Shown here: positions 4,200 through 25,517 of the stretch, piece after piece
Layout: each line of letters opens with the position of its first letter
How positions within the stretch are numbered: position 1 is the stretch's first letter
Assembly: GCF_041629635.1 (NCBI RefSeq)
Contig: NZ_JBFKMX010000001.1
Location: forward strand, 7,863-71,862
Source: Pseudoalteromonas sp.
Lineage (GTDB): Bacteria; Pseudomonadota; Gammaproteobacteria; Enterobacterales; Alteromonadaceae
Reading direction: 5' to 3'
DNA: 64,000 bases
Position numbers and translations under genes: made by a program
Notes under the pieces: model-generated
What the model was told of the DNA's origin: nothing
What the model saw: only the letters and a program-made list of their open reading frames with translations
Databases searched by the model: none

Positions 4200-4215
4200 T
4201 GGCGCTAATATTGCG
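4200..4215 (+). promoter_or_regulatory. sigma54 -24/-12 promoter
   Basis: TGGCGC-TAATA-TTGCG, exact GG-N10-GC spacing, intergenic. Confidence 0.65.
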
Positions 4216-4283
4216 ACATAACCTACAGAGTAGTGAAAAAATAGTGTTTTTCACATTTTGAAAACAAAATTCGTTAAATTGCG

Positions 4284-4296
4284 TTGCATTTTGCAA
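4284..4296. promoter_or_regulatory. LuxO-type enhancer box
   Basis: Perfect TTGCA-TTT-TGCAA palindrome, intergenic, just before the RBS of the gene at 4310. Confidence 0.7.
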
Positions 4297-8672: not shown

Positions 8673-8716
8673 TTGCAAAATGCAACAAGTAAATAAACTT
8701 CTGTTGCATTTTGCTA
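8673..8716. promoter_or_regulatory. Tandem LuxO-type enhancer boxes
   Basis: Perfect TTGCA-AAA-TGCAA (8673-8685) and TTGCA-TTT-TGCTA (8704-8716), centres 31 bp apart (about 3 helical turns). Confidence 0.75.
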
Positions 8717-8767
8717 TAATTCTTATCAGTTAACTTGTAACTAATTGAAATATTAATATATTAATTT

Positions 8768-8783
8768 TGGCATTGTATTTGGT
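8768..8783 (+). promoter_or_regulatory. Putative sigma54 promoter with variant -12
   Basis: TGGCAT-TGTAT-TTGGT: consensus -24, correct spacing, GG instead of GC at -12; downstream of the tandem boxes and 35 bp before ATG 8818. Confidence 0.55.
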
Positions 8784-14272: not shown

Positions 14273-14307
14273 AAAGGGATTTGTTAAATGTGATCAGGAG
14301 GTTGCCT

Positions 14308-15729
14308 ATGCCAAATAAGATTTTAATTGTTGAAGATACAGAATCACTTGCGCTTTTGTACCAGTCTTACCTGATCCCAACAGGCATGCACTCGGATATT
14401 GCGTTTACAGGGCAAGAAGCGCTTAATTATTTGGAAAAGAATAAACCCGATTTGATCATGCTGGATGTGATGCTACCGGACATGAGTGGCATGGATATTC
14501 TAGCACAGCTTTCCGTTAATGACCGTCCCAAAGTGGTGGTATTAACAGCTCATGCTAGTAAAGAAATGGCTGTTGATGCGATTCATTATGGTGCCGCAGA
14601 CTTTATTGAAAAACCCGTTGATGCAGAGCGCTTTCGTATTACTGTTAACAATGCTTTGAAACTCAATTCACTAAGTAAAACGGTAGAAAAATATCAATCT
14701 CGTTATGAAAATGGTCGCTTTTGTGAACTAATTGGCACTTCGGCACCGATGCAAACGGTATATCAAATCATTAGCAATTCAGCAAAAAGTAAAGCCACTG
14801 TGTTTATTACTGGTGAAAGTGGAACAGGTAAAGAGCTTTGTGCACGCGCAATTCACCAATGTAGTGACCGCAGTAAACACCCCTTTATAGCGATTAATTG
14901 TGCTGCAATCCCAAAAGATCTGATTGAAAGTGAAATATTTGGTCATGTAAAAGGCGCATTTACAGGAGCGACTAACAACCGTGAAGGTGCGGCAGGGATG
15001 GCTGATGGTGGTACGCTATTTCTTGATGAACTGTGTGAAATGGATTTAAACCTACAAAGTAAACTATTGCGCTTTATACAAACGGGTTGTTTCCAAAAAG
15101 TAGGTAGCGAACAACTGCAACAAGTGAATGTACGTTTTGTATGTGCGACTAACCGCGATCCATGGCAGGAGGTACAAGCTGGGCGCTTTAGAGAAGATTT
15201 ATATTATCGCTTATATGTTATACCTGTGCAGTTGCCTCCGTTGCGCCAACGGGGTCGGGATGTCATTCAAATTGCAGAAGCGTTATTTGCACGTATTGCA
15301 AAAGAAGAAGGGCAAGCGTTTGATGGATTAAGTGATGATGCAAAACAACACCTAATGTCTTATAGTTGGCCTGGAAATGTGCGTCAACTGGAAAATATGA
15401 TTCGTAATACGGTGGTGTTGAATAATACCGCATGGATAGAAAAACAGATGTTTCCCCCTTTTCCACAAAGTCACGTGTCGCAAGAACCCTTTATGGATGA
15501 GAGCATGAGTGTGTCTGAGCAACTATCTACGCCTAGTTTTGAAACCAATAATTTACTTAGAAGCTCAGATATAGAGCCTTTATGGCTAGTTGAAAAACGC
15601 TACATTGAAAAGGCAATAGCAGCGTGTAACGACAATGTACCAAAAGCAGCAGCATTATTAGATATCAGTCCATCTACAATCTACCGCAAAATGAAAACAT
15701 GGGAGCAAATGTCTGCACAGCTCTATTAG
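14308..15729 (+). CDS. luxO: sigma54-dependent response regulator, LuxO-like
   Basis: REC, GESGTGKE, GAFTGA, HTH; NCAAIPKDLIESE, DELCEMDLNLQSKLLRFIQTG, ATNRDPWQEVQAGRFREDLYYRLYVIP and ISPSTIYRK closely follow Vibrio LuxO as recalled; AGGAGG RBS. Confidence 0.8.
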   Translation: MPNKILIVEDTESLALLYQSYLIPTGMHSDIAFTGQEALNYLEKNKPDLIMLDVMLPDMSGMDILAQLSVNDRPKVVVLTAHASKEMAVDAIHYGAADFIEKPVDAERFRITVNNALKLNSLSKTVEKYQSRYENGRFCELIGTSAPMQTVYQIISNSAKSKATVFITGESGTGKELCARAIHQCSDRSKHPFIAINCAAIPKDLIESEIFGHVKGAFTGATNNREGAAGMADGGTLFLDELCEMDLNLQSKLLRFIQTGCFQKVGSEQLQQVNVRFVCATNRDPWQEVQAGRFREDLYYRLYVIPVQLPPLRQRGRDVIQIAEALFARIAKEEGQAFDGLSDDAKQHLMSYSWPGNVRQLENMIRNTVVLNNTAWIEKQMFPPFPQSHVSQEPFMDESMSVSEQLSTPSFETNNLLRSSDIEPLWLVEKRYIEKAIAACNDNVPKAAALLDISPSTIYRKMKTWEQMSAQLY

Positions 15730-16730
15730 TTTAAATAAAGTTTAATTAACTGAATATATTGTGATTTTCCTGCATAGAATTGATGAAGTTGGCTGGTTGC
15801 ATTTTTGACCAGATAATTACGCTCTTGCTGGCTCATTAAAAGCGCCTCTCTTAATTTACTCACCAATGCTTGGTGCGATTGGTCGTCCGTTAATAGTCCA
15901 GTGTGGTTGTTTATGATAACAGAATCGATAGCACCTACTGCATTTGCGATACATAACACTTTATTGTCAATAGCTTCAAGCAAGACCATAGGTAACCCTT
16001 CCTCTCTAGAACAAATTACTAATATATCAACGTGCTGCCATAATTTTTGAGTCGATTTATGACCATGAAAAAGCGTATTGTTCGAAGCTTTTTTTTGTAA
16101 CTCAGCGATCATAGGTCCATCGCCATAAAGGTGAAATTTAATGTTCTCTTGATGTTGAAAATGAGTGGCCAATTTAATAAAACGTTCGGGTGCTTTTTCA
16201 TATGCTAAACGTCCAACAAAAGCGATATTCAGTTGTTTTTCGGGCTCTTTTGGATGTGGGTTTTTAGGCAAGATAAAATTAGCAATAAACTGGCCATTTT
16301 TAACCTTACTTTTGAGTTGATTTGCCACGACTAAGTTTTTTGAAAAGCCGCTGGTTATTTGGTCGAGCCAATTATAGAGCCTTATTCTGCCCGAACCTTT
16401 TTCGCCAGCATGATAGGTGGAAATACAAGTGTGACCAGTTATTTTACATGTAAGTCTACCAATAATACCTGCTTTGTAACCATGGGTATGTAATACATAG
16501 TTGTCACTATGTTTGAGGAAATGAAAAAGATCTAATGCACTACCGCCTAAACATTGATAAGGGCAGTTAAGCTCTGTCAATAAATCATAGAGCTGATGAT
16601 TGAGATGATCTTGATAAAAAAGAACACTTGTAGGCACATGTTTCGATTGCATCAATTTAACTAATTCAATAATGTGCGATTCAATGCCGCCAAATAGGCT
16701 AGAATCTAGAAAGAGTACAAGATTTCGCAT
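15726..16730 (-). CDS. GT4 glycosyltransferase (SypH-like)
   Basis: FGGIESH, HTHGYKAG, FVGRLAYEKAP, SREEGLPMVLLEA; start moved to ATG 16730 behind AGGAG. Confidence 0.9.
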   Translation of the reverse strand: MRNLVLFLDSSLFGGIESHIIELVKLMQSKHVPTSVLFYQDHLNHQLYDLLTELNCPYQCLGGSALDLFHFLKHSDNYVLHTHGYKAGIIGRLTCKITGHTCISTYHAGEKGSGRIRLYNWLDQITSGFSKNLVVANQLKSKVKNGQFIANFILPKNPHPKEPEKQLNIAFVGRLAYEKAPERFIKLATHFQHQENIKFHLYGDGPMIAELQKKASNNTLFHGHKSTQKLWQHVDILVICSREEGLPMVLLEAIDNKVLCIANAVGAIDSVIINNHTGLLTDDQSHQALVSKLREALLMSQQERNYLVKNATSQLHQFYAGKSQYIQLIKLYLN

Positions 16731-16755: not shown

Positions 16756-17073
16756 ATGTTTAACCAAACAACCATAAAACAACTGGAAGCCGATGTTGGC
16801 CAAGAAGTACTGATCAAACTTTTTGCCGTTTTTGCTCAAGAAGCGACAAAACTAACCGAGCAACTTATGGCTTGCACATCTCTTGATGAAGAATGTGTAC
16901 GTTTAAGCCATAGCCTTAAAAGCTGCGCTCGTTCCTATGGTGCGGATCAGCTAAGTGCTCTTGCTGAAACCCTTGAAAATCTTGCAAAAAATAACGATGC
17001 AAGCTTCTTTAATGAACGTGCGCTTTTAGGTGGCATACTGGATGCGACCATGTCTGCAATGCCAATGCTTTAA
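16756..17073 (+). CDS. luxU: Stand-alone Hpt phosphotransfer protein, LuxU-like
   Basis: SHSLKSCARSYGADQL Hpt motif; N-terminus FNQTTIKQLEADVG resembles Vibrio LuxU; AAGGA RBS before ATG 16756. Confidence 0.75.
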   Translation: MFNQTTIKQLEADVGQEVLIKLFAVFAQEATKLTEQLMACTSLDEECVRLSHSLKSCARSYGADQLSALAETLENLAKNNDASFFNERALLGGILDATMSAMPML

Positions 17074-17960
17074 TGCACTTTTGCATTTAGGCTTAAAGAG
17101 TGCTCATTAGTGTTGGGTAACCACTGTTCAATAATATGTTTAAGCTGAGATTTATTATGCTTTCCGATTGATTGTTCTTTTTCTATGGCGCGTAAATCCA
17201 TGGCCTCAAATGCATCTGGAGTGAGACATACATCAAAAAACTTGTAGCCTAAGATATGCATAGCCTGGTCAAGTTGCTCTGTGGCAGCAAGTTGGTCAAC
17301 AGGGCTATGTTCAGGCGTTAAGTTTTCAATAAAGATGCGACAACCAGTGGTATTACATAATGCTTTTTGAATATCCCATAACATTAAGGGCGGCATTACA
17401 CTGGTTAATAAACTACCAGGACCTAATAAGATTAAATCAGCACAGTTTATTGCCTCAATGGCTTGCTGGTTAGCACTGACCTGTTTGGATAAACGCATGT
17501 TATTAGGAAAATGACTAAGTGTGTCAATATTGCATTCACCAAAAACCTCCTCTCCTGTAGAGGTTGTAGCAACTAAATCAACAGGCGTATTTGTCATTGG
17601 CAAAATAGTATGTTCAACCCCTAACATGCTAGAGAAAATTTTAACTGCATCGTTTGCGTTGTGTGTAATTTGGCACAGTGCGCACAGTAGAATATTGCCA
17701 AAACTGTGACCCTTCAAATCATTGTCTAATTCAAAGCGTTGTTCGGACAAGATTGATAACATCTGGTCTTGGCAGGCTAACGCACTAACGCAACGGCGAA
17801 TATCACCTAAAGCAATTTGACTTGGGTCTTGACGCAAACGTCCGGTGCTGCCGCCGTTGTCAGTTGTAGTTACGATTGCTGTCAGTGCACAAGGTATGTT
17901 TTTTAAAGCGCTTAACACTTGCGATAGACCATGTCCCCCGCCAATACACACAATATTCAT
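17070..17960 (-). CDS. yvcK: YvcK/GlmR (CofD-like) UDP-binding protein
   Basis: IGGGHGL, TTTDNGGSTGRLR, GDIRRC, GHSFGNI, LGPGSLLTS; start moved to ATG 17960. Confidence 0.9.
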   Translation of the reverse strand: MNIVCIGGGHGLSQVLSALKNIPCALTAIVTTTDNGGSTGRLRQDPSQIALGDIRRCVSALACQDQMLSILSEQRFELDNDLKGHSFGNILLCALCQITHNANDAVKIFSSMLGVEHTILPMTNTPVDLVATTSTGEEVFGECNIDTLSHFPNNMRLSKQVSANQQAIEAINCADLILLGPGSLLTSVMPPLMLWDIQKALCNTTGCRIFIENLTPEHSPVDQLAATEQLDQAMHILGYKFFDVCLTPDAFEAMDLRAIEKEQSIGKHNKSQLKHIIEQWLPNTNEHSLSLNAKVH

Positions 17961-17994
17961 ATTTCGCCCCCCCATCGGTGTGTATTGAAAAGGA

Positions 17995-18010
17995 TTCAAA
18001 TTGTGTACCA
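17995..18010 (-). promoter_or_regulatory. Putative sigma54 promoter of yvcK with variant -12
   Basis: Minus strand TGGTAC-ACAAT-TTGAA, GG-N10-GA. Confidence 0.5.
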
Positions 18011-18051
18011 AGATATAAAACGCGAAAACTAGGGAAAACATTAATTTTTAT

Positions 18052-18064
18052 TTGCATTTTGCAA
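18052..18064. promoter_or_regulatory. LuxO-type enhancer box between yvcK and the hybrid kinase
   Basis: Perfect TTGCA-TTT-TGCAA; reverse complement shares the 16-mer GCATTGCAAAATGCAA with 8670-8685. Confidence 0.75.
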
Positions 18065-18130
18065 TGCAGCTTGCGGGGTCATTCGCTAAACTTAATTTTA
18101 ACCTTCGACCAAAACTCACAAAGAGGTGTC

Positions 18131-20140
18131 ATGGGAAAACTTAGTGCCAATGCTACATTGCAATTACTAGAAGATCTTATTAGCAGTAAAAATGCATTTG
18201 AATTACTGATTAAATTGCAAATAGGCCTTCAGCCTATTGTCAGATTTTCAGAGATCTTGATTTTGACCCAAGATCATTCGCAACTGTGTGCTGTGGCAAG
18301 CACTTACGAACCCTTATCGGGGGCGTGTTTATTTAATAAAGAAGAGCTTTTTGAAAGCGGTTTTGAAGAACAGATATTAGTGGTCAATAACACTGAGTTA
18401 CCAGCAGATTGGCAATTACCAAACACAGGTAATAAAGCGGCTTTAATTCCCATTAATTTTGCTGGGCGGAAAGGTATATATATATTATTTTTGACGGAAG
18501 AGATGGTTGATGATTCACAGGTAAAAAGTAATCTAATGGCTAGTCTTATCGTTTTTCGTCTAGCTTTTTATCAATTAGATCAACAACATCAAACTTCCCA
18601 AATGCTACTCGACCGAACTTTTGCGCTAACGCAGAGCCAGCAACGGTTTCAAGCTTATGCCGAACTTGCTTCTGATTGGTTTTGGGAAACGGATGAAAGC
18701 ATGTGCTTTACCTATCTTTCTTTTACTGAACAAAGTAAACCCAGTAACTTTGAGAACTTTTTATACAAAAGTCCGTTAAATATTCGCAGTGACAGCGAAA
18801 GTACTCAATGTAAAAAGTGGGAACACTTTTTACATCTTGTGCGTAAACATTTAGACATTATTGATTTTGAGTTTGAGGCAATAAACAACCAAGGTCACAC
18901 GGTTTGGATATCAATCAGTGGTAAAGCAAAATTCAATGTGGACAATAGCTTTGCGGGGTATTTGGGCATCGCTAAAGACATCAGTTTCTCTAAGCAGCGT
19001 GAATCAGATTTAAAAATGGCTAAAGAGAAAGCTGAAAGTGCTAACGCTGCAAAATCACATTTTCTTGCTGTTATGTCTCATGAAATTCGTACGCCGATGA
19101 ATGCAATTCTGGGTATATTAGAGTTACTTGAAGACACAGACCCGAATGATAAACAACGCGAGTTAATTGAATTTATGCGTGGCAGTGCCCAGTTGTTGCA
19201 GGGGGTTATCAGTGATACATTGGACTTTGCAAAAATTGAATCAGGCACCCTTGCATTAGAAAGTAGTAATATTAATTTTCATAAGCTAATCAAGAATTTA
19301 GTTCAGCAATTCGAAACCCAAGCGATAAAAAAAGGCATCCATTTTAATGCTATTGTGGGTAATGGTGTACCCGAGCAGATTAATACCGATGGTGTTCGTT
19401 TGTCTCAGGTCTTACTTAATTTGTTGGGAAATGCATTCAAATTTACCTTAACGGGAGAGGTTTGCCTTGCGGTTAATCGCAGTGATACCGAATTGTTGAT
19501 ATCGGTAAAGGACAGCGGCATAGGTATCGAGCAAAGCCAAGTAGATAGTTTGTTTGAACCGTTTTCACAGTTGCATGATAAACAAATTGGTCGACAGCAA
19601 GGAGTTGGTCTTGGTTTAAGTATCACTAAACGCTTGCTTGAATTGATGAATGGGAAAATAGAATGCCACAGTGAAATTGGTGTGGGCACTGAATTTTCTG
19701 TTGCTATTCCATTGCAGTTGGAAGTAACCGATGAAAACCCAGAAGGGTTGGAATCTAAAAATATCAGTACACCGAGTTATCATATTTTGGTCGCTGAAGA
19801 TAACCCAGCAAACCAATTTATCATTAAAGCTATTTTGGAAAAACGCAACCATACAGTGTCACTTGCGGATAATGGTGAGCAAGCTGTTGCCGCAGTTAAA
19901 AAATCGCAATTTGATTTGGTGCTAATGGATATGGTGATGCCTGTAATGGATGGTGTAGTAGCGGCACGCACGATAAGAACAGAACTTGGCAGAATGGCAC
20001 CGCCTATCATCGCGTTGACTGCAAATGCTGGGTTAGCTGACAAAACCAAATGTTTAAATGCGGGCATGTTGGATGTACTGACAAAACCATTAAACAGCGC
20101 TTTGTTAGACGAAAAAATAAGGACCCTTGTCGGGACGTAG
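18131..20140 (+). CDS. Soluble hybrid sensor histidine kinase (GAF-like, PAS, HisKA, HATPase, REC)
   Basis: ELASDWFWETD PAS, MSHEIRTPMN H-box, N/G boxes, AEDNPANQ..LMDMVMP receiver; no TM helix and no Hpt; start moved to ATG 18131 behind GAGG. Confidence 0.9.
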   Translation: MGKLSANATLQLLEDLISSKNAFELLIKLQIGLQPIVRFSEILILTQDHSQLCAVASTYEPLSGACLFNKEELFESGFEEQILVVNNTELPADWQLPNTGNKAALIPINFAGRKGIYILFLTEEMVDDSQVKSNLMASLIVFRLAFYQLDQQHQTSQMLLDRTFALTQSQQRFQAYAELASDWFWETDESMCFTYLSFTEQSKPSNFENFLYKSPLNIRSDSESTQCKKWEHFLHLVRKHLDIIDFEFEAINNQGHTVWISISGKAKFNVDNSFAGYLGIAKDISFSKQRESDLKMAKEKAESANAAKSHFLAVMSHEIRTPMNAILGILELLEDTDPNDKQRELIEFMRGSAQLLQGVISDTLDFAKIESGTLALESSNINFHKLIKNLVQQFETQAIKKGIHFNAIVGNGVPEQINTDGVRLSQVLLNLLGNAFKFTLTGEVCLAVNRSDTELLISVKDSGIGIEQSQVDSLFEPFSQLHDKQIGRQQGVGLGLSITKRLLELMNGKIECHSEIGVGTEFSVAIPLQLEVTDENPEGLESKNISTPSYHILVAEDNPANQFIIKAILEKRNHTVSLADNGEQAVAAVKKSQFDLVLMDMVMPVMDGVVAARTIRTELGRMAPPIIALTANAGLADKTKCLNAGMLDVLTKPLNSALLDEKIRTLVGT

Positions 20141-20863: not shown

Positions 20864-22070
20864 TGTACTAGCTCAGACTTGATCTGACAGTTACCCGTTT
20901 TTCAATCGGTGACTGTCAGTTTAGATTTGAGCTAAATTCTTTTCTGCCCAAATGCGTTTTCCATCTTCTAATGTTGCCAATGGCGTTCTGCCACAGCACA
21001 TTTTTCCTTGATGAGTTCGGTCATTATTGTAATAAACCATCCATTCGTCCAGATCCTTTTGTAATTCTTCTAACGAGCTATACAGCTTTTTACGGAACGT
21101 TACCTGATAAAACTCATTCAATATCGTCTTATGGAATCGCTCACAGATACCGTTTGTCTGCGGTGACATGGCTTTTGTTTTTGTGTGATCGATATCATTA
21201 ATCGCCAGATATAACTGGTAATCGTGATGCTCGACTTTACCGCAATACTCTGTACCTCTGTCTGTGAGTATTCGCAGCATTGGCAGCTCATGCTGCTCGA
21301 AGTAAGGTAGAGCTCTATCGTTCAGTATGTCCGCTGCTGTAATTGGCTTTTGGTGGTGTAGAGCTTCGCGAATGCTACTTTGCTGTACGTATCAACGAAC
21401 GTTTGCTGGTAGATACGTCCAACACCTTTGAGATTACCCACGTAAAATGTATCTTGTGAGCCAAGGTATCCAGGGTGAGCTGTTTCGATTTCTCCGCAAG
21501 CTTCATCATCGTTTTTCTTTTTCTCAAGCGCTGCGATTTGGCTGTCAGTTAAGATAATGCCTTCGTTAGCTACTTTGTCTTCTAAGGCTTTCAGCCGTTT
21601 CTTTAAGTTCTCTAAGTCATGGCGTAACCATATTGAACGAACACCACTGCCAGATACGAACACACCTTGCTTCCTAAGCTCGTTACTGGTTCTGTGTTGG
21701 CCGTGGGCTGGATAATCCACTGCATACTTGATTACGGCTTGTTCTGTTACTTCATCAACTCTGTTTTTGATGTTTGGCGACCTACGACTTTTATCAATTA
21801 ACGCATCAAGTCCACCATCTTCTACTAGCTCTTGATATCGATAAAATGTGTCTCGTGAAACGCCCATGACTTTACAGGCTTTAGAAACTTTACCTAATTC
21901 TTCAGCAAGATTAAGTAAACCAGTTTTGTGTTTTATAATTGGGTTGTTAGTATGCAACATGAGAGTTACCACCTTTTTGGTTGTTTTGATTTAAGATTCA
22001 GCACCTTTATCAAAACGGGTAACTCTCAATTTTTCAAATCGAAATGTCAGATCAAGTCGAGACTAATTCA
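20864..22070 (-). mobile_element. IS481-family insertion sequence (ISSod13-like), 1207 bp
   Basis: Terminal IRs TGTACTAGCTCAGACTTGATCTGACA (20864-20889) and the reverse complement of 22045-22070 (TGAATTAGTCTCGACTTGATCTGACA); 7-bp direct repeat TTATAAT at 20857-20863 and 22071-22077. Confidence 0.9.
20921..21960 (-). pseudogene. IS481-family transposase with a 1-nt deletion
   Basis: MLHTNNPIIKHKTGLLNLAEELG..., GSQDTFYVG, LTDRGTEYCG, QTNGICERFHKT; frame breaks near 21347 where the expected ACCAAAACGCCA (TKTP) reads ACCAAAAGCCA. Confidence 0.85.
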
Positions 22071-23579
22071 TTATAATGATTCAAAAAACGCGATTTCAAA
22101 CTCTGTGCCTTTGCCTAACTCGCTATTTACAGTCACCTTTGCATTATGCTGTTGTAGAATACTATAAGAAATAGCCAAACCCAGTCCGGTGCCTTCACCT
22201 GGTGCTTTGGTTGTAAAAAATGGGGTGAAAATATCCGCCAAATGCGAAGGGTCAATACCTTCTCCTTGATCTTTTACCGTTACAATTATCTTATTTCGAT
22301 CTTTTTTACTGCTTATTGTAAGTGTACCGCCCTCTGGCATTGCGTGCTTGGCATTTACAAACAGGTTTATAAATACTTGCTGTAATTTCCCTGCGTTGCC
22401 AAGAATACTTGCTTCGGATAGTAGATCTTTAACTACCTGATGTTGATATTTGAATTCGTTACTCACCACATTCAGTGACTTTTCAATCACCAAGTTTAAA
22501 TCAATGCTGTCGAGTTCATCATTGTCCATGCGTGAAAAAGTACTTAAATCAGACACTATGTCTCTTACCCTGATAAGCCCTTGCACGGATGCAGCAAGAA
22601 TATCTTCACTATCTGTTAGTAAAAAATCACCGTCTAGAGTCTGCCAATGGCCCAGCATTTGCTTAACTTTGCTTTGATTGTCTAGGTTGGTATTTGTTAG
22701 TGGTGAAACAATTTCTGAAAAATCATTAAAATAATCTCGCATGGTATCAAGGTTACTTAGGACGAATCCAATGGGGTTATTAATTTCATGTGCTACTCCG
22801 GCAGCTAATTGCCCGAGCGATGCCAACTTTTCTTGTTGCAGTAATTGTTGCTGTGTTTGTTCTAACATTTTATTACTGGTTTCAAGCTCGATTAAGCGCT
22901 CTTGCAGCGTTTCTTCAGCTCGTTTACGTTCAAATGCCACTGCTAACATACTGCGAGAAGATTCCAACGTTTGTAGCTTTACAATATTGATATCTTCTTG
23001 CGATTCGTAAAGTAATATGACAAGGCCAACCGCTTTACCTGACGGTAAATCAAGGGTATAAACAGGAACAATTACGCTATAGACAAAGTGTGCGTTTGCA
23101 TCTTTAGAAATTTCGCTATGCTCAAATATTTGTGATTCGTTTTCATTCAAAACGTGATGATAGAGTTTGTTGTGATTAAGCTGACTCAGTACCTCTTTAA
23201 GGTGCTTTGCTAAAATCTTAGATTCTCGTTCGGACGCTTGGCAATAAGATTGAAATTGATGCAACGAAAGATCCCCATGAATTTCCACAAAAAAATTGTG
23301 TGCAACACTTATAAAATTGTTTGTACGCTCTAGGTAATTTGAAATAATTTTGTGTAAATTGGGTTGTCGCCATGTTTCAGCTAGTAAACCAGTTAAAAAT
23401 TCAAGCTGTTCCTGCTGAGAAGCGATTTCTTGCTTTGTAAGGTTAACCGCTTCTTCTTTCTGGTAGAGCTCTCGAGAAGAGTCTTCAAGTTGCTTTTCGG
23501 CCTCTTTGCGCGCCAAGCGTTCGCGCATTAAAATACGCTCTAGTGCGTCGATTTTGCCCTGGGCGTTAAAATTATTCAT
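22071..23579 (-). CDS. H-NOX-associated sensor histidine kinase
   Basis: N-terminal coiled coil [30 protein letters not shown]-box, [25 protein letters not shown]; overlaps the H-NOX stop codon. Confidence 0.9.
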
Positions 23580-24117
23580 TAAATGTTATTTCAATTTCAC
23601 AACAATCAGCACCTTGGTGCATACAGCTATTCTGCGAGACAGAGACTGATTCTTTAAAGTGTTTTGCGGCACCAAGGATTAGACCCTCAGACAAAAAACA
23701 AAGCTTACGAGGTGAACGGTAAAGCATGGTTAAGTTATCACCAGAATCTCCTCCGTAGCTAAATTCAGGTAATTGCGCTTCTTTATCAAGCTTTTTAACT
23801 TCAACGTGAATCAGCTCATCTACCATCATTAAAAATGTGCGAAGAGAAGGTGCATTTTGAGCTTCATCAGGTGCCAGAGACATCAATAGTGGGAATAAGT
23901 ACTCACCAAAAGTCCTAACTAGGTCGGGAATGGGAACTTCAAGTTGTTCTGATAAGTAACCGATAATGGCGAAAAGTTCAACGTCTTGGTACTGCTTGGT
24001 TGAGGTATAGATCCCATGCGACTCAAGTGTATTGTTGGTCAGCGCTTCATCCCATAATTGATAACCATGGTTTTCTTCTACAAATTCCTGTAGTGCATTA
24101 AAAATTGCTCCCTTCAT
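23572..24117 (-). CDS. Heme NO/O2-binding (H-NOX/HNOB) protein
   Basis: MKGAIF start, FGEYLF, proximal His in IHVEV, conserved Pro, YRSPR (YxSxR) motif, C-terminal CMHQGADCC. Confidence 0.9.
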   Translation of the reverse strand: MKGAIFNALQEFVEENHGYQLWDEALTNNTLESHGIYTSTKQYQDVELFAIIGYLSEQLEVPIPDLVRTFGEYLFPLLMSLAPDEAQNAPSLRTFLMMVDELIHVEVKKLDKEAQLPEFSYGGDSGDNLTMLYRSPRKLCFLSEGLILGAAKHFKESVSVSQNSCMHQGADCCEIEITFNE

Positions 24118-24224
24118 TTTGTCCTCTTTTTAAGCATAATCAGGTTGATCAATTTAAAAAATAGTGTCACTTTTTAGTTAAGGCAATGTTTTTATAATAA
24201 ATAGCGAAATCGCACAGCTCGGGC

Positions 24225-25517
24225 ATGGTGATGACAGACAAGTTAAAATTAATGATTGTTGATGACGAAGTAGAAGTGCTGAATGCTTTGAAAAGGCTGT
24301 TCAGAAAAGACTATGACGTTGACATTTTTAGTGATCCCGAGCTTGCGGTGAAACAGCTGGTTGATACCACTTACGCGGTAATTGTCTCAGATATGAAAAT
24401 GCCAAAAATGTCGGGCGCACAGCTATTGTCAAAAGCATTTGAAATTTGTCCTGATACTGCGCGCATTTTATTGACGGGCTATTCTGATATTGATTCCACC
24501 GCAATGGCGATAAACCAAGGTAAGATTAACAATTATGTCAGTAAGCCTTGGAGTAACGATGAGCTTAGGAATGTGGTGTTGCAAGCCGCCGAACAGTTTC
24601 AACTAAAGCAATCGGTACAACGGTTAGAAGTTGAATTAAAACTGAAAAACGATTTGTTAAAACAGCAAAATTTAGAACTAGAAAGCAAGGTGGAAGAACG
24701 TACGTTATCGCTTTCTATCCTTAATGAGAAATTGAAATCAGCCAATAACCGTCAACGTAGTTTATTTTATGATGTCATTGAGATGATTAATTTGATCATA
24801 GAAGATACCACTGGTGGCGGAGAAGGGCATGTTAAGCGAGTTGCCAGTCACTGTCGTATGCTTGCAATAGCGATGGGGCTTGAAAAAAACCAAGTAACGC
24901 AAGTGTATTTAGCGGGATTAATGCATGAAATTGGCAAAGTATCACTGACCGATAATTTAGCAAAAAGCATTGAAAATGAGCTTTCTCGAGCCGAGCTAAC
25001 TGAAAAACAAAACCATGCAGTTAAAGGCGCTGAAATATTACAAACAGTACCGCACTTAAAAATGATTGGTACAGCTGTAAAACATCAATATGAACGCTTT
25101 GATGGCAGTGGTGTACCAGACCATCTAATAGGTTCTAATATACCATTAGCTTCTAGGATTTTAACTGTAGTAAACGAATTCGACAAATTGGTACTTGGCC
25201 GTATCAGTACACAAAAACTGTCGCAACCACAAGCCATAGATTTTTTAAAGAAAGAGAGTAAGACCTTTTTTGATCCGGAAATTGTCGACGTATACATCAA
25301 GCTACTTAATAGTGAAATTTCGCTTGAGCATCATAATATAGATTTATGTGTCGGAGTGGAGATGCTAGAACCAGGTATGCACTTAAGCCAAGACCTACTT
25401 AACAAACAAGGTGCAGTGGTACTGACGCAAGGTACTGAGATTACTCCCACAGTGATAGCTAAACTAAAAGCCTATGAAAAAGAATGGCGTTACATTTTTA
25501 ATATCTTCGTGCACTAA
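24225..25517 (+). CDS. Response regulator with degenerate HD-GYP domain
   Basis: REC IVDD..IVSDMKMP..SKPW; output has HEIGK, HQYERFDGSGVP and NEFD instead of HDIGK, HHERxDGxGYP and DxFD. Confidence 0.85.
   Translation: MVMTDKLKLMIVDDEVEVLNALKRLFRKDYDVDIFSDPELAVKQLVDTTYAVIVSDMKMPKMSGAQLLSKAFEICPDTARILLTGYSDIDSTAMAINQGKINNYVSKPWSNDELRNVVLQAAEQFQLKQSVQRLEVELKLKNDLLKQQNLELESKVEERTLSLSILNEKLKSANNRQRSLFYDVIEMINLIIEDTTGGGEGHVKRVASHCRMLAIAMGLEKNQVTQVYLAGLMHEIGKVSLTDNLAKSIENELSRAELTEKQNHAVKGAEILQTVPHLKMIGTAVKHQYERFDGSGVPDHLIGSNIPLASRILTVVNEFDKLVLGRISTQKLSQPQAIDFLKKESKTFFDPEIVDVYIKLLNSEISLEHHNIDLCVGVEMLEPGMHLSQDLLNKQGAVVLTQGTEITPTVIAKLKAYEKEWRYIFNIFVH

What the first reader, a model, noticed from the sequence alone, without database searches (positions are those of the whole stretch)
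17070..18064. yvcK as a member of the EPS regulon may explain its linkage to luxOU
Seen: yvcK has a perfect box and a variant sigma54 element upstream and is interleaved with a glycosyltransferase. Known: B. subtilis YvcK/GlmR binds UDP-GlcNAc and stimulates GlmS; Vibrio yvcK lies convergent to luxU without known reason. Inference: YvcK raises amino-sugar precursor supply when EPS is induced, and the Vibrio linkage is a relic of such a locus.
Basis: inference. Interest (0 to 1): 0.55.

Follow-up and report, generated by a model that had tools for sequence, protein, structure and literature searches.

The report
LuxO-box, sigma-54 controlled yvcK in EPS locus
In this marine Pseudoalteromonas, yvcK (a GlmR-family gene tied elsewhere to UDP-GlcNAc supply) sits behind a conserved LuxO-type enhancer box and sigma-54 promoter inside a syp-like biofilm-polysaccharide locus. 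It is therefore very probably switched on together with the polysaccharide genes, whereas the matching Vibrio gene next to luxU has no such control.

Summary
A perfect TTGCAAAATGCAA box (18052-18064) and a -24/-12 element, TGGTAC-N5-TTGAA (18010-17995), precede yvcK. Its true start is ATG 17960. A sypH-like GT4 gene is interleaved on the same strand.

The signal is not chance:
- 23 of 23 Pseudoalteromonas genomes with this gene order keep a GG-N10-G element 43-58 nt before the yvcK ATG (shuffles: mean 0.07).
- 22 of 23 keep a box-like palindrome further upstream.
- In 81 genomes of the genus, yvcK is accessory and almost strictly co-occurs with the LuxO-type activator and the syp-like locus.

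GT and Hpt start 25 bp apart head-to-head, and no conserved internal sigma-54 promoter was found. The promoter therefore most likely drives a yvcK-GT transcript that runs antisense across the LuxU-like Hpt gene.

The precursor-supply role is plausible but untested. Salmonella GlmR enhances GlmS, and the one solved syp-type EPS is half N-acetylhexosamine.

The "relic" reading is only partly supported. Vibrio yvcK does converge on luxU (16 of 17 genomes), but no LuxO box or sigma-54 element lies within 400 bp upstream. The widely conserved feature is a tail-to-tail, often overlapping, Hpt/yvcK pair in four bacterial families, and in two of them it adjoins syp-like genes. Earlier notes of this scan on this same window (the box regulon, the interdigitated genes) agree; nothing like it was found on other DNA.

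The parts
18052..18064 (.). LuxO-type enhancer box (UAS), TTGCAAAATGCAA read toward yvcK. Its centre is about 73 nt upstream of the inferred transcription start and 67 bp upstream of the divergent kinase ATG.
   Evidence: A box-like palindrome is retained upstream of yvcK in 22 of 23 syntenic genomes. It is the only long invariant block in the intergenic alignment.
17995..18010 (-). Sigma-54 -24/-12 element, TGGTAC-N5-TTGAA (-12 reads GA rather than GC).
   Evidence: A GG-N10-G element lies at -58..-43 from the ATG in 23 of 23 genomes, against a shuffle mean of 0.07. Most relatives have the canonical TGCT at -12. The same TTGAA type occurs at the sypA-like promoters.
17070..17960 (-). yvcK (GlmR/YbhK family, 296 aa). 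It is the only copy in the genome.
16756..17073 (+). LuxU-like Hpt phosphotransfer protein (105 aa from ATG 16756). Its stop overlaps the yvcK stop by 4 bp.
15726..16730 (-). sypH-like GT4 glycosyltransferase. Its ATG at 16730 lies 25 bp from the Hpt ATG, head-to-head. It is probably the second gene of the yvcK transcript.
   Evidence: 33-36% identity to the GT that follows sypG in Vibrio syp loci; no conserved own sigma-54 promoter or box.
14281..15729 (+). LuxO-type sigma-54 enhancer-binding response regulator, the presumed binder of the boxes. Its stop overlaps the GT stop by 4 bp.
   Evidence: NF041946 at 666.7 bits against a cut-off of 800; only one in the genome.
18131..20140 (+). Hybrid histidine kinase (HisKA-HATPase-REC, no Hpt), divergent from yvcK and sharing the 170-bp control region.
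8673..8783 (+). sypA-like promoter used for comparison: boxes at 8673-8685 and 8704-8716, and TGGCAT-N5-TTGGT at 8768-8783.

Best explanation
yvcK is the first gene of a sigma-54-dependent transcription unit that belongs to the local regulon of a syp-type exopolysaccharide locus.

The locus encodes a LuxO-clade enhancer-binding response regulator. This regulator is presumably phosphorylated through the adjacent LuxU-like Hpt protein and the hybrid kinase. When active it binds the TTGCAAAATGCAA box and activates sigma-54 RNA polymerase at TGGTAC-N5-TTGAA, about 50 nt downstream. The transcript covers yvcK, runs antisense across the Hpt gene, and most likely continues into the sypH-like glycosyltransferase gene, which has no room for a promoter of its own in front of it.

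YvcK is a GlmR-family protein. It most likely raises UDP-GlcNAc supply while the polysaccharide is being made, either as a GlmS enhancer or as an accessory uridyltransferase.

What is shown: the motifs, their conservation, the co-occurrence, and the gene architecture. What is inferred: binding by this activator, co-transcription with the GT, and the biochemical role.

My odds:
- Activator- and sigma-54-dependent expression of yvcK: about 0.8.
- yvcK-GT co-transcription: about 0.6.
- A UDP-GlcNAc supply role: about 0.4.
For: The motifs are present and far more frequent than chance allows.

Footprinting: 23 of 23 genomes have the -24/-12 element at a fixed distance while its spacer sequence varies freely, and 22 of 23 have a box. 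The box variants (TCGCA half-sites) and the TTGAA-type -12 recur at the sypA-like promoters of the same genomes. All 7 genome-wide perfect boxes have a GG-N10-G element nearby.

Co-occurrence in 81 genomes of the genus:
- YvcK of this type is present in 24, the LuxO-like activator in 24, and both in 23.
- sypC-like is present in 22, all of which have both.
- The one genome with the activator but no detected sypC carries a disrupted yvcK.
- The one genome with yvcK but no activator has lost the box.

Architecture: the GT and Hpt start codons are 25 bp apart head-to-head, both pairs of convergent genes overlap at their stops by 4 bp, and no conserved sigma-54 promoter or box lies in front of the GT.

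The genome has rpoN and a single glmS.

Functional precedent in the literature: PMC8964723, PMC7525490, PMC10128056, PMC9145141, PMC5801674. A proximal UAS between -106 and -60 is documented for qrr1 (PMC10162802).
Against: There are no transcript, binding or metabolite data.

The window's -12 lacks the canonical C. The box centre is only about 49 nt from the -24 GG, which is short for DNA looping; most relatives have about 90 nt.

The C-terminal part of the protein, where B. subtilis Y265 and R301 bind UDP-GlcNAc, aligns poorly with solved homologues. The window protein also has one of the weakest TIGR01826 scores in the order.

Vibrio and two other families keep the Hpt/yvcK pair without a box or sigma-54 element. 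The linkage therefore does not need this regulation.

The EPS composition here is unknown. Related genomes are not independent observations.
Confidence: 0.62

Rival explanations
1. Passenger or antisense reading. The promoter exists to express the sypH-like GT, and yvcK is kept next to the LuxU-type Hpt gene for a reason unrelated to amino-sugar supply. One possibility is mutual cis-antisense control, an excludon or non-contiguous-operon arrangement in which induced yvcK-GT transcription damps Hpt expression as feedback on the phosphorelay. Another is a protein-level link between YvcK and the Hpt protein.
For: The Hpt/yvcK tail-to-tail pair, mostly with overlapping coding ends (-4 to -36 bp), is conserved in Pseudoalteromonas, in 10 of 16 Vibrio genomes, and in two further families, including one group with no syp genes nearby. 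Vibrio yvcK has no box. The yvcK transcript must cross the whole Hpt gene to reach the GT.
Against: Within the genus, yvcK tracks the EPS locus, and it is disrupted where sypC is not found. A yvcK function in UDP-GlcNAc supply is documented in a relative of the same order (PMC8964723). The two readings are not exclusive.
Confidence: 0.25
2. The box serves mainly as an operator for the divergent hybrid-kinase gene, in the way LuxO represses its own promoter from the site shared with qrr1. On this reading the -24/-12-like element before yvcK is weak or inactive in this strain.
For: The box lies 67 bp upstream of the kinase ATG. No sigma-54 element points toward the kinase. The window's -12 is non-canonical.
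Against: The -24/-12 element is kept at a fixed distance from yvcK in 23 of 23 genomes, with a canonical GC in most of them. The TTGAA type is also used at the sypA-like promoters. Dual use of the box is possible and would not remove yvcK from the regulon.
Confidence: 0.1
3. Evolutionary reading by the first reader. The Vibrio luxO-luxU / yvcK neighbourhood descends from a syp-like locus in which a LuxO/SypG ancestor controlled EPS genes and yvcK, and Vibrio later lost the regulatory link.
For: The activator here groups with Vibrio LuxO rather than SypG (57-58% against 48-53% identity; tree), yet it sits in the sypG position of a syp-like locus. It is followed by Hpt and a convergent yvcK, as in Vibrio. 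A second family has sypC-sypD-sypE-Hpt followed by a convergent yvcK.
Against: The LuxO/Pseudoalteromonas node is weak (81/58). Hpt-linked YvcKs are not monophyletic, and at least 4 changes are forced on the tree. The Pseudoalteromonas locus is accessory within its genus and could equally be a derived fusion of a luxOU-yvcK module with a syp locus. No polarity can be inferred.
Confidence: 0.25
4. The motifs are a chance match without function.
For: Pattern matches alone prove nothing. The relaxed -24/-12 pattern is not enriched in the window as a whole (3 matches against 1.16 expected).
Against: Searches show positional conservation across proteins down to 45% identity, and strong enrichment of the box in the locus.
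Confidence: 0.02

Closest known systems
Vibrio fischeri syp locus and its SypG/sigma-54 regulon (also scv of V. parahaemolyticus and eps of V. diabolicus)
   Same: Gene content and order match: sypL-R-like genes, then sypA-E-like genes, a sigma-54 activator in the sypG position, and a sypH-like GT. Several sigma-54 promoters each have upstream palindromic enhancers.
   Different: The activator is closer to LuxO than to SypG. The enhancers match the LuxO motif, and the SypG motif TTCTCANNNTGMDW is not enriched. The sypH homologue is inverted. A LuxU-like Hpt gene, yvcK and the kinase follow, and neither yvcK nor an Hpt gene was seen in the three Vibrio syp stretches examined.
Vibrio LuxO-LuxU quorum-sensing relay with LuxO boxes at qrr promoters
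   Same: The box TTGCAWWWTGCAA plus sigma-54 is shared. The order activator, Hpt, convergent yvcK is shared. So is the divergent arrangement box / sigma-54 target versus a relay gene, as with qrr1 and luxO.
   Different: No Qrr was found in the window or the genome (90.5% complete; the search rang in none of the 14 control genomes, so it does not show absence). The targets are protein-coding EPS genes and yvcK. The activator falls below the LuxO equivalog cut-off. In Vibrio itself yvcK has no box.
GlmR/YvcK of Bacillus, Listeria and Salmonella
   Same: Family membership is met (TIGR01826), with the GGGxGLS, DNGGSTG and GPGSLxTS motifs present. Salmonella glmR is also transcriptionally tuned to UDP-GlcNAc demand, through NagC (PMC8964723).
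   Different: Here control is by a sigma-54/LuxO-type activator inside an accessory EPS island. yvcK is not next to yvcJ/rapZ, which lies in the rpoN operon on another contig. The UDP-sugar-binding residues are unverified.
Non-contiguous operons / excludons (for example S. aureus menE-menC with ytkD antisense)
   Same: Two interdigitated antiparallel gene pairs leave no space for internal promoters.
   Different: This is purely inferred from the sequence here. No transcript evidence exists.

Membership tests
YvcK/GlmR (TIGR01826, CofD-related) | HMM score above the curated cut-off | tested here: met
   265.6 bits against 196. Pfam CofD E-value 2e-70.
YvcK/GlmR (TIGR01826, CofD-related) | Conserved nucleotide-binding motifs shared with solved YvcK homologues | tested here: met
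   The protein aligns over residues 1-275 with 2ppv and over 2-245 with 2hzb and 2o2z. GGGxGLS, DNGGSTG and GPGSLxTS are conserved.
YvcK/GlmR (TIGR01826, CofD-related) | UDP-GlcNAc-binding residues equivalent to B. subtilis Y265 and R301 (PMC7525490) | tested here: inconclusive
   The C-terminal 50 residues align poorly or not at all with solved homologues. No B. subtilis reference sequence was available by reference.
YvcK/GlmR (TIGR01826, CofD-related) | Stimulation of GlmS or uridyltransferase activity | not testable with these tools
   This needs biochemistry. A single glmS is present in the genome.
LuxO-type sigma-54 target promoter | UAS matching TTGCAWWWTGCAA upstream of the promoter | tested here: met
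   Perfect match at 18052-18064. Conserved in relatives.
LuxO-type sigma-54 target promoter | Canonical -24 GG / -12 GC with the correct spacing | tested here: inconclusive
   GG and the spacing are met. The window has GA at -12. 14 of 23 relatives have TGCT. TTGAA-type -12 elements recur at the sypA-like promoters.
Vibrio LuxO (NF041946 equivalog) | Score above the equivalog cut-off, and control of Qrr sRNAs | tested here: not met
   666.7 bits against a cut-off of 800. No Qrr was found in the window or the genome, but the genome search rang in no control genome either. The activator is sister to Vibrio LuxO with only weak support.
V. fischeri SypG regulon | SypG enhancer TTCTCANNNTGMDWN at the promoters | tested here: not met
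   18 matches against 17.5 expected with 1 mismatch allowed. None at the sypA-like or yvcK control regions; two one-mismatch matches (4152, 4250) lie in the intergenic region before the sypO-like gene.
syp-type EPS locus | sypA-E, sypG-position activator, sypH and sypL-R homologues in order | tested here: met
   Pfam domains and tblastn against three Vibrio syp loci.
Non-contiguous operon | One transcript spanning yvcK and the GT across the antisense Hpt gene | not testable with these tools
   Only the architecture (25 bp between divergent starts, 4-bp stop overlaps) and the lack of a conserved internal sigma-54 promoter are shown.

The most novel reading that the evidence does not exclude
The tail-to-tail, overlapping LuxU-type Hpt / YvcK gene pair is an old functional unit shared by Vibrio, Pseudoalteromonas and two further families. 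It couples a LuxO/SypG-type phosphorelay to cell-envelope sugar-nucleotide status, either through obligatory antisense overlap or through a direct YvcK-Hpt interaction. On this reading the LuxO quorum-sensing branch arose from a regulator of a syp-like polysaccharide locus that still controls yvcK in Pseudoalteromonas.
Probability: 0.15. Interest if true: 0.75.

Novelty: new variant of a known kind. Interest (0 to 1): 0.5.

Why it matters
YvcK/GlmR has hardly been studied in Gram-negative bacteria. I found no paper that discusses its constant position beside luxU in Vibrio; the one hit for both words holds yvcK outside its main text.

This locus gives the first regulatory context for that neighbourhood. 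In a whole clade of Pseudoalteromonas, yvcK is an accessory gene that comes and goes with a syp-type biofilm polysaccharide locus, and it carries the enhancer of that locus's LuxO-type activator.

This makes a concrete hypothesis directly testable in culturable strains such as P. atlantica: EPS induction is coupled to UDP-GlcNAc supply through YvcK. The locus also shows a LuxO-clade activator doing a SypG-type job with LuxO-type boxes and apparently no Qrr, which bears on how the LuxO and SypG branches diverged.

It remains a prediction from sequence. If it holds, it is a modest extension of known sigma-54 EPS regulons rather than a new principle.

Tried and rejected
- Rfam scan of the window and a Qrr (RF00378) search of the genome found nothing. 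The genome search rang in none of the control genomes either, so it does not show absence. The boxes are not known to serve a Qrr here.
- The SypG-type enhancer motif is not enriched.
- No LuxO box or sigma-54 element was found upstream of yvcK in 16 Vibrio genomes, nor in the two other families that have the Hpt/yvcK pair.
- No Hpt gene was found within 3 kb of yvcK in 19 genomes of other genera and families. This used a small HMM built from five seeds, so sensitivity is limited.
- A YvcK tree, built to test a single origin of the Hpt linkage, has an unresolved backbone and forces at least 4 changes, so it gives no support.
- The activator tree places the Pseudoalteromonas clade with Vibrio LuxO at only 81/58 support.
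- The consensus scan found no convincing sigma-70 promoter or terminator between yvcK and the GT, and no conserved internal sigma-54 promoter. A weak sigma-70 promoter cannot be excluded.
- The residue-level check of the UDP-GlcNAc site failed, because the C-terminus does not align to solved homologues.
- Literature searches for yvcK with luxU, and for Pseudoalteromonas with LuxO and EPS, found no prior description.
Full report
**What is at the coordinates.** The window comes from a Pseudoalteromonas genome (4.03 Mb, 278 contigs, 90.5% complete). The region 1-20140 is a syp-type exopolysaccharide locus. It holds, in order:
- Wzy_C-like, hexapeptide acetyltransferase, GT, GNVR chain-length and GT genes, and a fused GT2/sugar-transferase gene;
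- a STAS (sypA-like) gene, an OmpA-like gene, a Wza/SLBB gene, an AAA_31 gene, and a sypE-like HATPase_c_2-REC-SpoIIE gene;
- a REC-AAA+-HTH sigma-54 activator (14281-15729, plus strand);
- a GT4 gene on the minus strand;
- an Hpt gene on the plus strand;
- a CofD/YvcK gene on the minus strand;
- a hybrid histidine kinase gene on the plus strand.

YvcK scores 265.6 bits on TIGR01826 (cut-off 196) and is the only family member in the genome. The activator scores 666.7 bits on the Vibrio LuxO model (cut-off 800). It is the only protein of that kind in the genome; the next best scores 376 bits.

**Checking the observation.** The perfect palindrome TTGCAAAATGCAA lies at 18052-18064. The window has three perfect TTGCAWWWTGCAA copies against 0.09 expected. 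The whole genome has seven, and four of them fall within 20 kb of this locus. TGGTACACAATTTGAA lies at 18010-17995 on the minus strand, with GG correctly placed but GA instead of GC at -12.

The longest ORF (ATG 18041) would put the box only 11 bp from the start codon. However, every one of 35 relatives aligns from MNIVCIGGG, and a G-rich ribosome-binding site precedes ATG 17960. The gene is therefore 17960-17070. The -24/-12 element starts at -50 and the box at -104 from the ATG. The box centre is about 73 nt upstream of the inferred transcription start, which falls inside the -106 to -60 interval where a proximal UAS of V. fischeri qrr1 was mapped (PMC10162802).

**Is it more than chance?** I collected yvcK loci from 81 genomes of the genus.
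- In all 23 genomes that carry the syntenic type, with YvcK identity down to 45%, a GG-N10-G element matching the sigma-54 consensus with at most 3 mismatches lies 43-58 nt before the ATG. Mononucleotide shuffles of the same upstream regions give a mean of 0.07 genomes and a maximum of 2.
- In 22 of 23 genomes a box with at most 2 mismatches lies at -85 to -250. Shuffles give a mean of 0.6 and a maximum of 4.
- The spacer bases inside the -24/-12 element differ freely between clades, while GG and the -12 G stay fixed. This is the signature of selection on the promoter rather than of recent common descent.
- In an alignment of five upstream regions, the box is the only long invariant block.
- Fourteen of the 23 relatives have a canonical TGCT at -12. 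The window's clade uses TTGAA, TTGTA or TTGAT.
- The same non-canonical type (TGGCAY-N5-TTGAA or TTGGA) sits behind the paired boxes of the sypA-like promoter in four genomes. The "variant" is therefore the house style of this regulon. Box variants with TCGCA half-sites also co-occur at the sypA-like and yvcK promoters of the same genomes.
- The three perfect boxes elsewhere in the genome also have GG-N10-G elements 40-160 bp away.
- The V. fischeri SypG enhancer motif is not enriched.

**Co-occurrence within the genus.** yvcK is accessory in this genus. The counts in 81 genomes are:
- the syntenic YvcK type in 24 genomes;
- the LuxO-like activator (at least 61% identity) in 24;
- both in 23;
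- the sypC-like exporter in 22, all of which have both.

Three exceptions are informative. The one genome with the activator but no detectable sypC carries a yvcK interrupted by a stop codon. The one genome with yvcK and Hpt but no activator keeps the -24/-12 element and has no box. One genome has the activator only. Fifty genomes have no YvcK-family gene at all. These are related genomes and not independent trials, and the sample is not the whole genus.

**Architecture.**
- The GT's real start is ATG 16730, with a GAGGAG ribosome-binding site. The close relative has an in-frame stop upstream of the equivalent point.
- The Hpt gene's likely start is ATG 16756, with an AAAGGA ribosome-binding site. 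More distant homologues and the LuxU model align from there.
- The two start codons are 25 bp apart and divergent, so neither gene has room for a promoter in front of it.
- The activator and GT stops overlap by 4 bp, as do the Hpt and yvcK stops.
- The same arrangement holds in P. atlantica-type genomes.
- No conserved sigma-54 promoter or box lies between the yvcK stop and the GT start: 3 sporadic hits in 21 genomes. The consensus scan shows nothing convincing there either.

The simplest reading is two interdigitated units. On the plus strand, activator...Hpt. On the minus strand, yvcK...GT, with the minus-strand unit driven by the boxed sigma-54 promoter. The GT is homologous (33-36%) to the glycosyltransferase that directly follows sypG in three Vibrio syp loci. 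The promoter therefore feeds an EPS enzyme, and yvcK is its first cistron. Co-transcription is inferred, not shown.

**Which regulator family?** In five Vibrio genomes the activator is 57-58% identical to the LuxO encoded next to luxU, and 48-53% identical to the SypG-type protein inside the syp locus. In a maximum-likelihood tree the Pseudoalteromonas clade is sister to Vibrio LuxO with weak support (81/58), and it is separate from Vibrio SypG (100/100). It works like a SypG (an EPS locus regulator), looks like a LuxO (sequence, box, adjacent LuxU-like Hpt), fails the LuxO equivalog cut-off, and has no detectable Qrr.

In 16 of 17 Vibrio genomes with a LuxU hit, yvcK is immediately convergent with luxU, mostly with 12-15 bp of coding overlap. 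Vibrio yvcK has its own intergenic region. Within 400 bp upstream there is no LuxO box with up to 2 mismatches and no positioned -24/-12 element in any of the 16. The regulatory link is therefore not present in Vibrio.

The same tail-to-tail Hpt/yvcK pair occurs in two further, unnamed families of the order.
- One family has sypC-sypD-sypE-Hpt followed by a convergent yvcK, so it again adjoins syp-like genes, without an activator gene in between.
- The other has an amidotransferase gene, Hpt, a convergent yvcK, a FIST-domain gene and a related hybrid kinase gene.

In 19 genomes of other genera and families, yvcK has no detectable Hpt neighbour. Hpt-linked YvcKs are not monophyletic, and the backbone of the tree is unresolved. 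The linkage is thus real and old, and it recurs beside syp-like loci. Whether Vibrio retains a "relic" or Pseudoalteromonas fused two modules cannot be decided.

**Function.** The locus contains no sugar-nucleotide synthesis gene, and YvcK is its only metabolic candidate. Published work supports a link to UDP-GlcNAc supply:
- B. subtilis GlmR binds UDP-GlcNAc and stimulates GlmS (PMC7525490, PMC6171935).
- Salmonella GlmR, from the same GTDB order, enhances GlmS, and its gene is activated together with glmUS (PMC8964723).
- Listeria GlmR is an accessory uridyltransferase (PMC10128056).
- The only structurally solved EPS from a syp-like locus, diabolican, is half GlcNAc/GalNAc (PMC9145141).
- One syp-like cluster carries glmS itself (PMC5801674).

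The genome has one glmS, and rapZ lies in the rpoN operon. The N-terminal nucleotide-binding motifs are intact, but the equivalents of Y265 and R301 could not be assigned. I rate the precursor-supply role at about 0.4.

The main alternative is that the pair is maintained for antisense or protein-level coupling with the LuxU-type Hpt. That would explain why the pair persists without the box in Vibrio. The box may also repress the divergent kinase gene, as LuxO does at its own promoter (this last point is from my own recollection, not checked in a paper here).

**Verdict.** Regulon membership is well supported. The biochemical role is plausible but untested. The evolutionary claim is partly supported at best. 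This is a new variant of a known kind of system: a syp-type sigma-54 EPS regulon run by a LuxO-clade activator and including a GlmR-family gene. It is of moderate interest.

Noticed in passing
window 4200-4296 (also L074, L075, L076): Before the sypO-like gene (ATG 4310), a good sigma-54 element (TGGCGC-N5-TTGCG, 4200-4215) lies upstream of the perfect box (4284-4296). The box therefore sits in the leader, 14 bp before the ATG. This order, promoter first and box second, is conserved in four genomes, which suggests downstream activation or a roadblock/repressor role.
   Followed up: partly
L035-L040 (seven Pseudoalteromonas genomes with genomes of about 6 Mb): A distant CofD-like paralogue (about 30% identity) lies between a Na+/H+ antiporter gene and a periplasmic binding-protein gene, in genomes without the LuxO-like activator. 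It still has a GG-N10-GC element at -51 to -53 and palindromes such as TTGCAATATGCAA about 65 nt further upstream. Which activator serves it is unknown.
   Followed up: partly
G000 C5:53202, C22:25764, C158:4859 (L082-L084): The three perfect boxes outside the locus each lie 40-160 bp from a -24/-12-like element. One precedes a 127-aa ORF with no Pfam match, and one precedes an ORF starting near L084:1005. These are likely further regulon members.
   Followed up: partly
L079:11770; L081:10409 and 11236: In the family that has Hpt, convergent yvcK, FIST and a hybrid kinase, TCGCATATTGCAA-type boxes lie just beyond the kinase gene. This echoes the near-box at window 20525 beyond the kinase here.
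   Followed up: no
L034 (G047:C44): yvcK is interrupted by a TAA codon in the one genome where the activator is present but no sypC-like gene was found. This is consistent with decay of yvcK once the EPS locus is lost.
   Followed up: partly
window 18080-18093: A block AAGTTTAGCGAATG, between the box and the kinase start, is conserved in the three closest genomes. It may be part of the kinase promoter or an architectural-protein site.
   Followed up: no
L015, L016 (G027, G010): In two genomes the GT-Hpt-yvcK-kinase block lies about 35 kb away from the activator and sypC genes, yet it keeps a -24/-12 element and a degenerate box upstream of yvcK.
   Followed up: no
window 21322-25517: An IS481-family transposase fragment lies next to an H-NOX gene, a histidine kinase gene and a divergent NosR-family response regulator/phosphodiesterase gene. 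This is a nitric-oxide sensing module right beside the EPS locus, as HnoX-HahK is for syp in V. fischeri.
   Followed up: no
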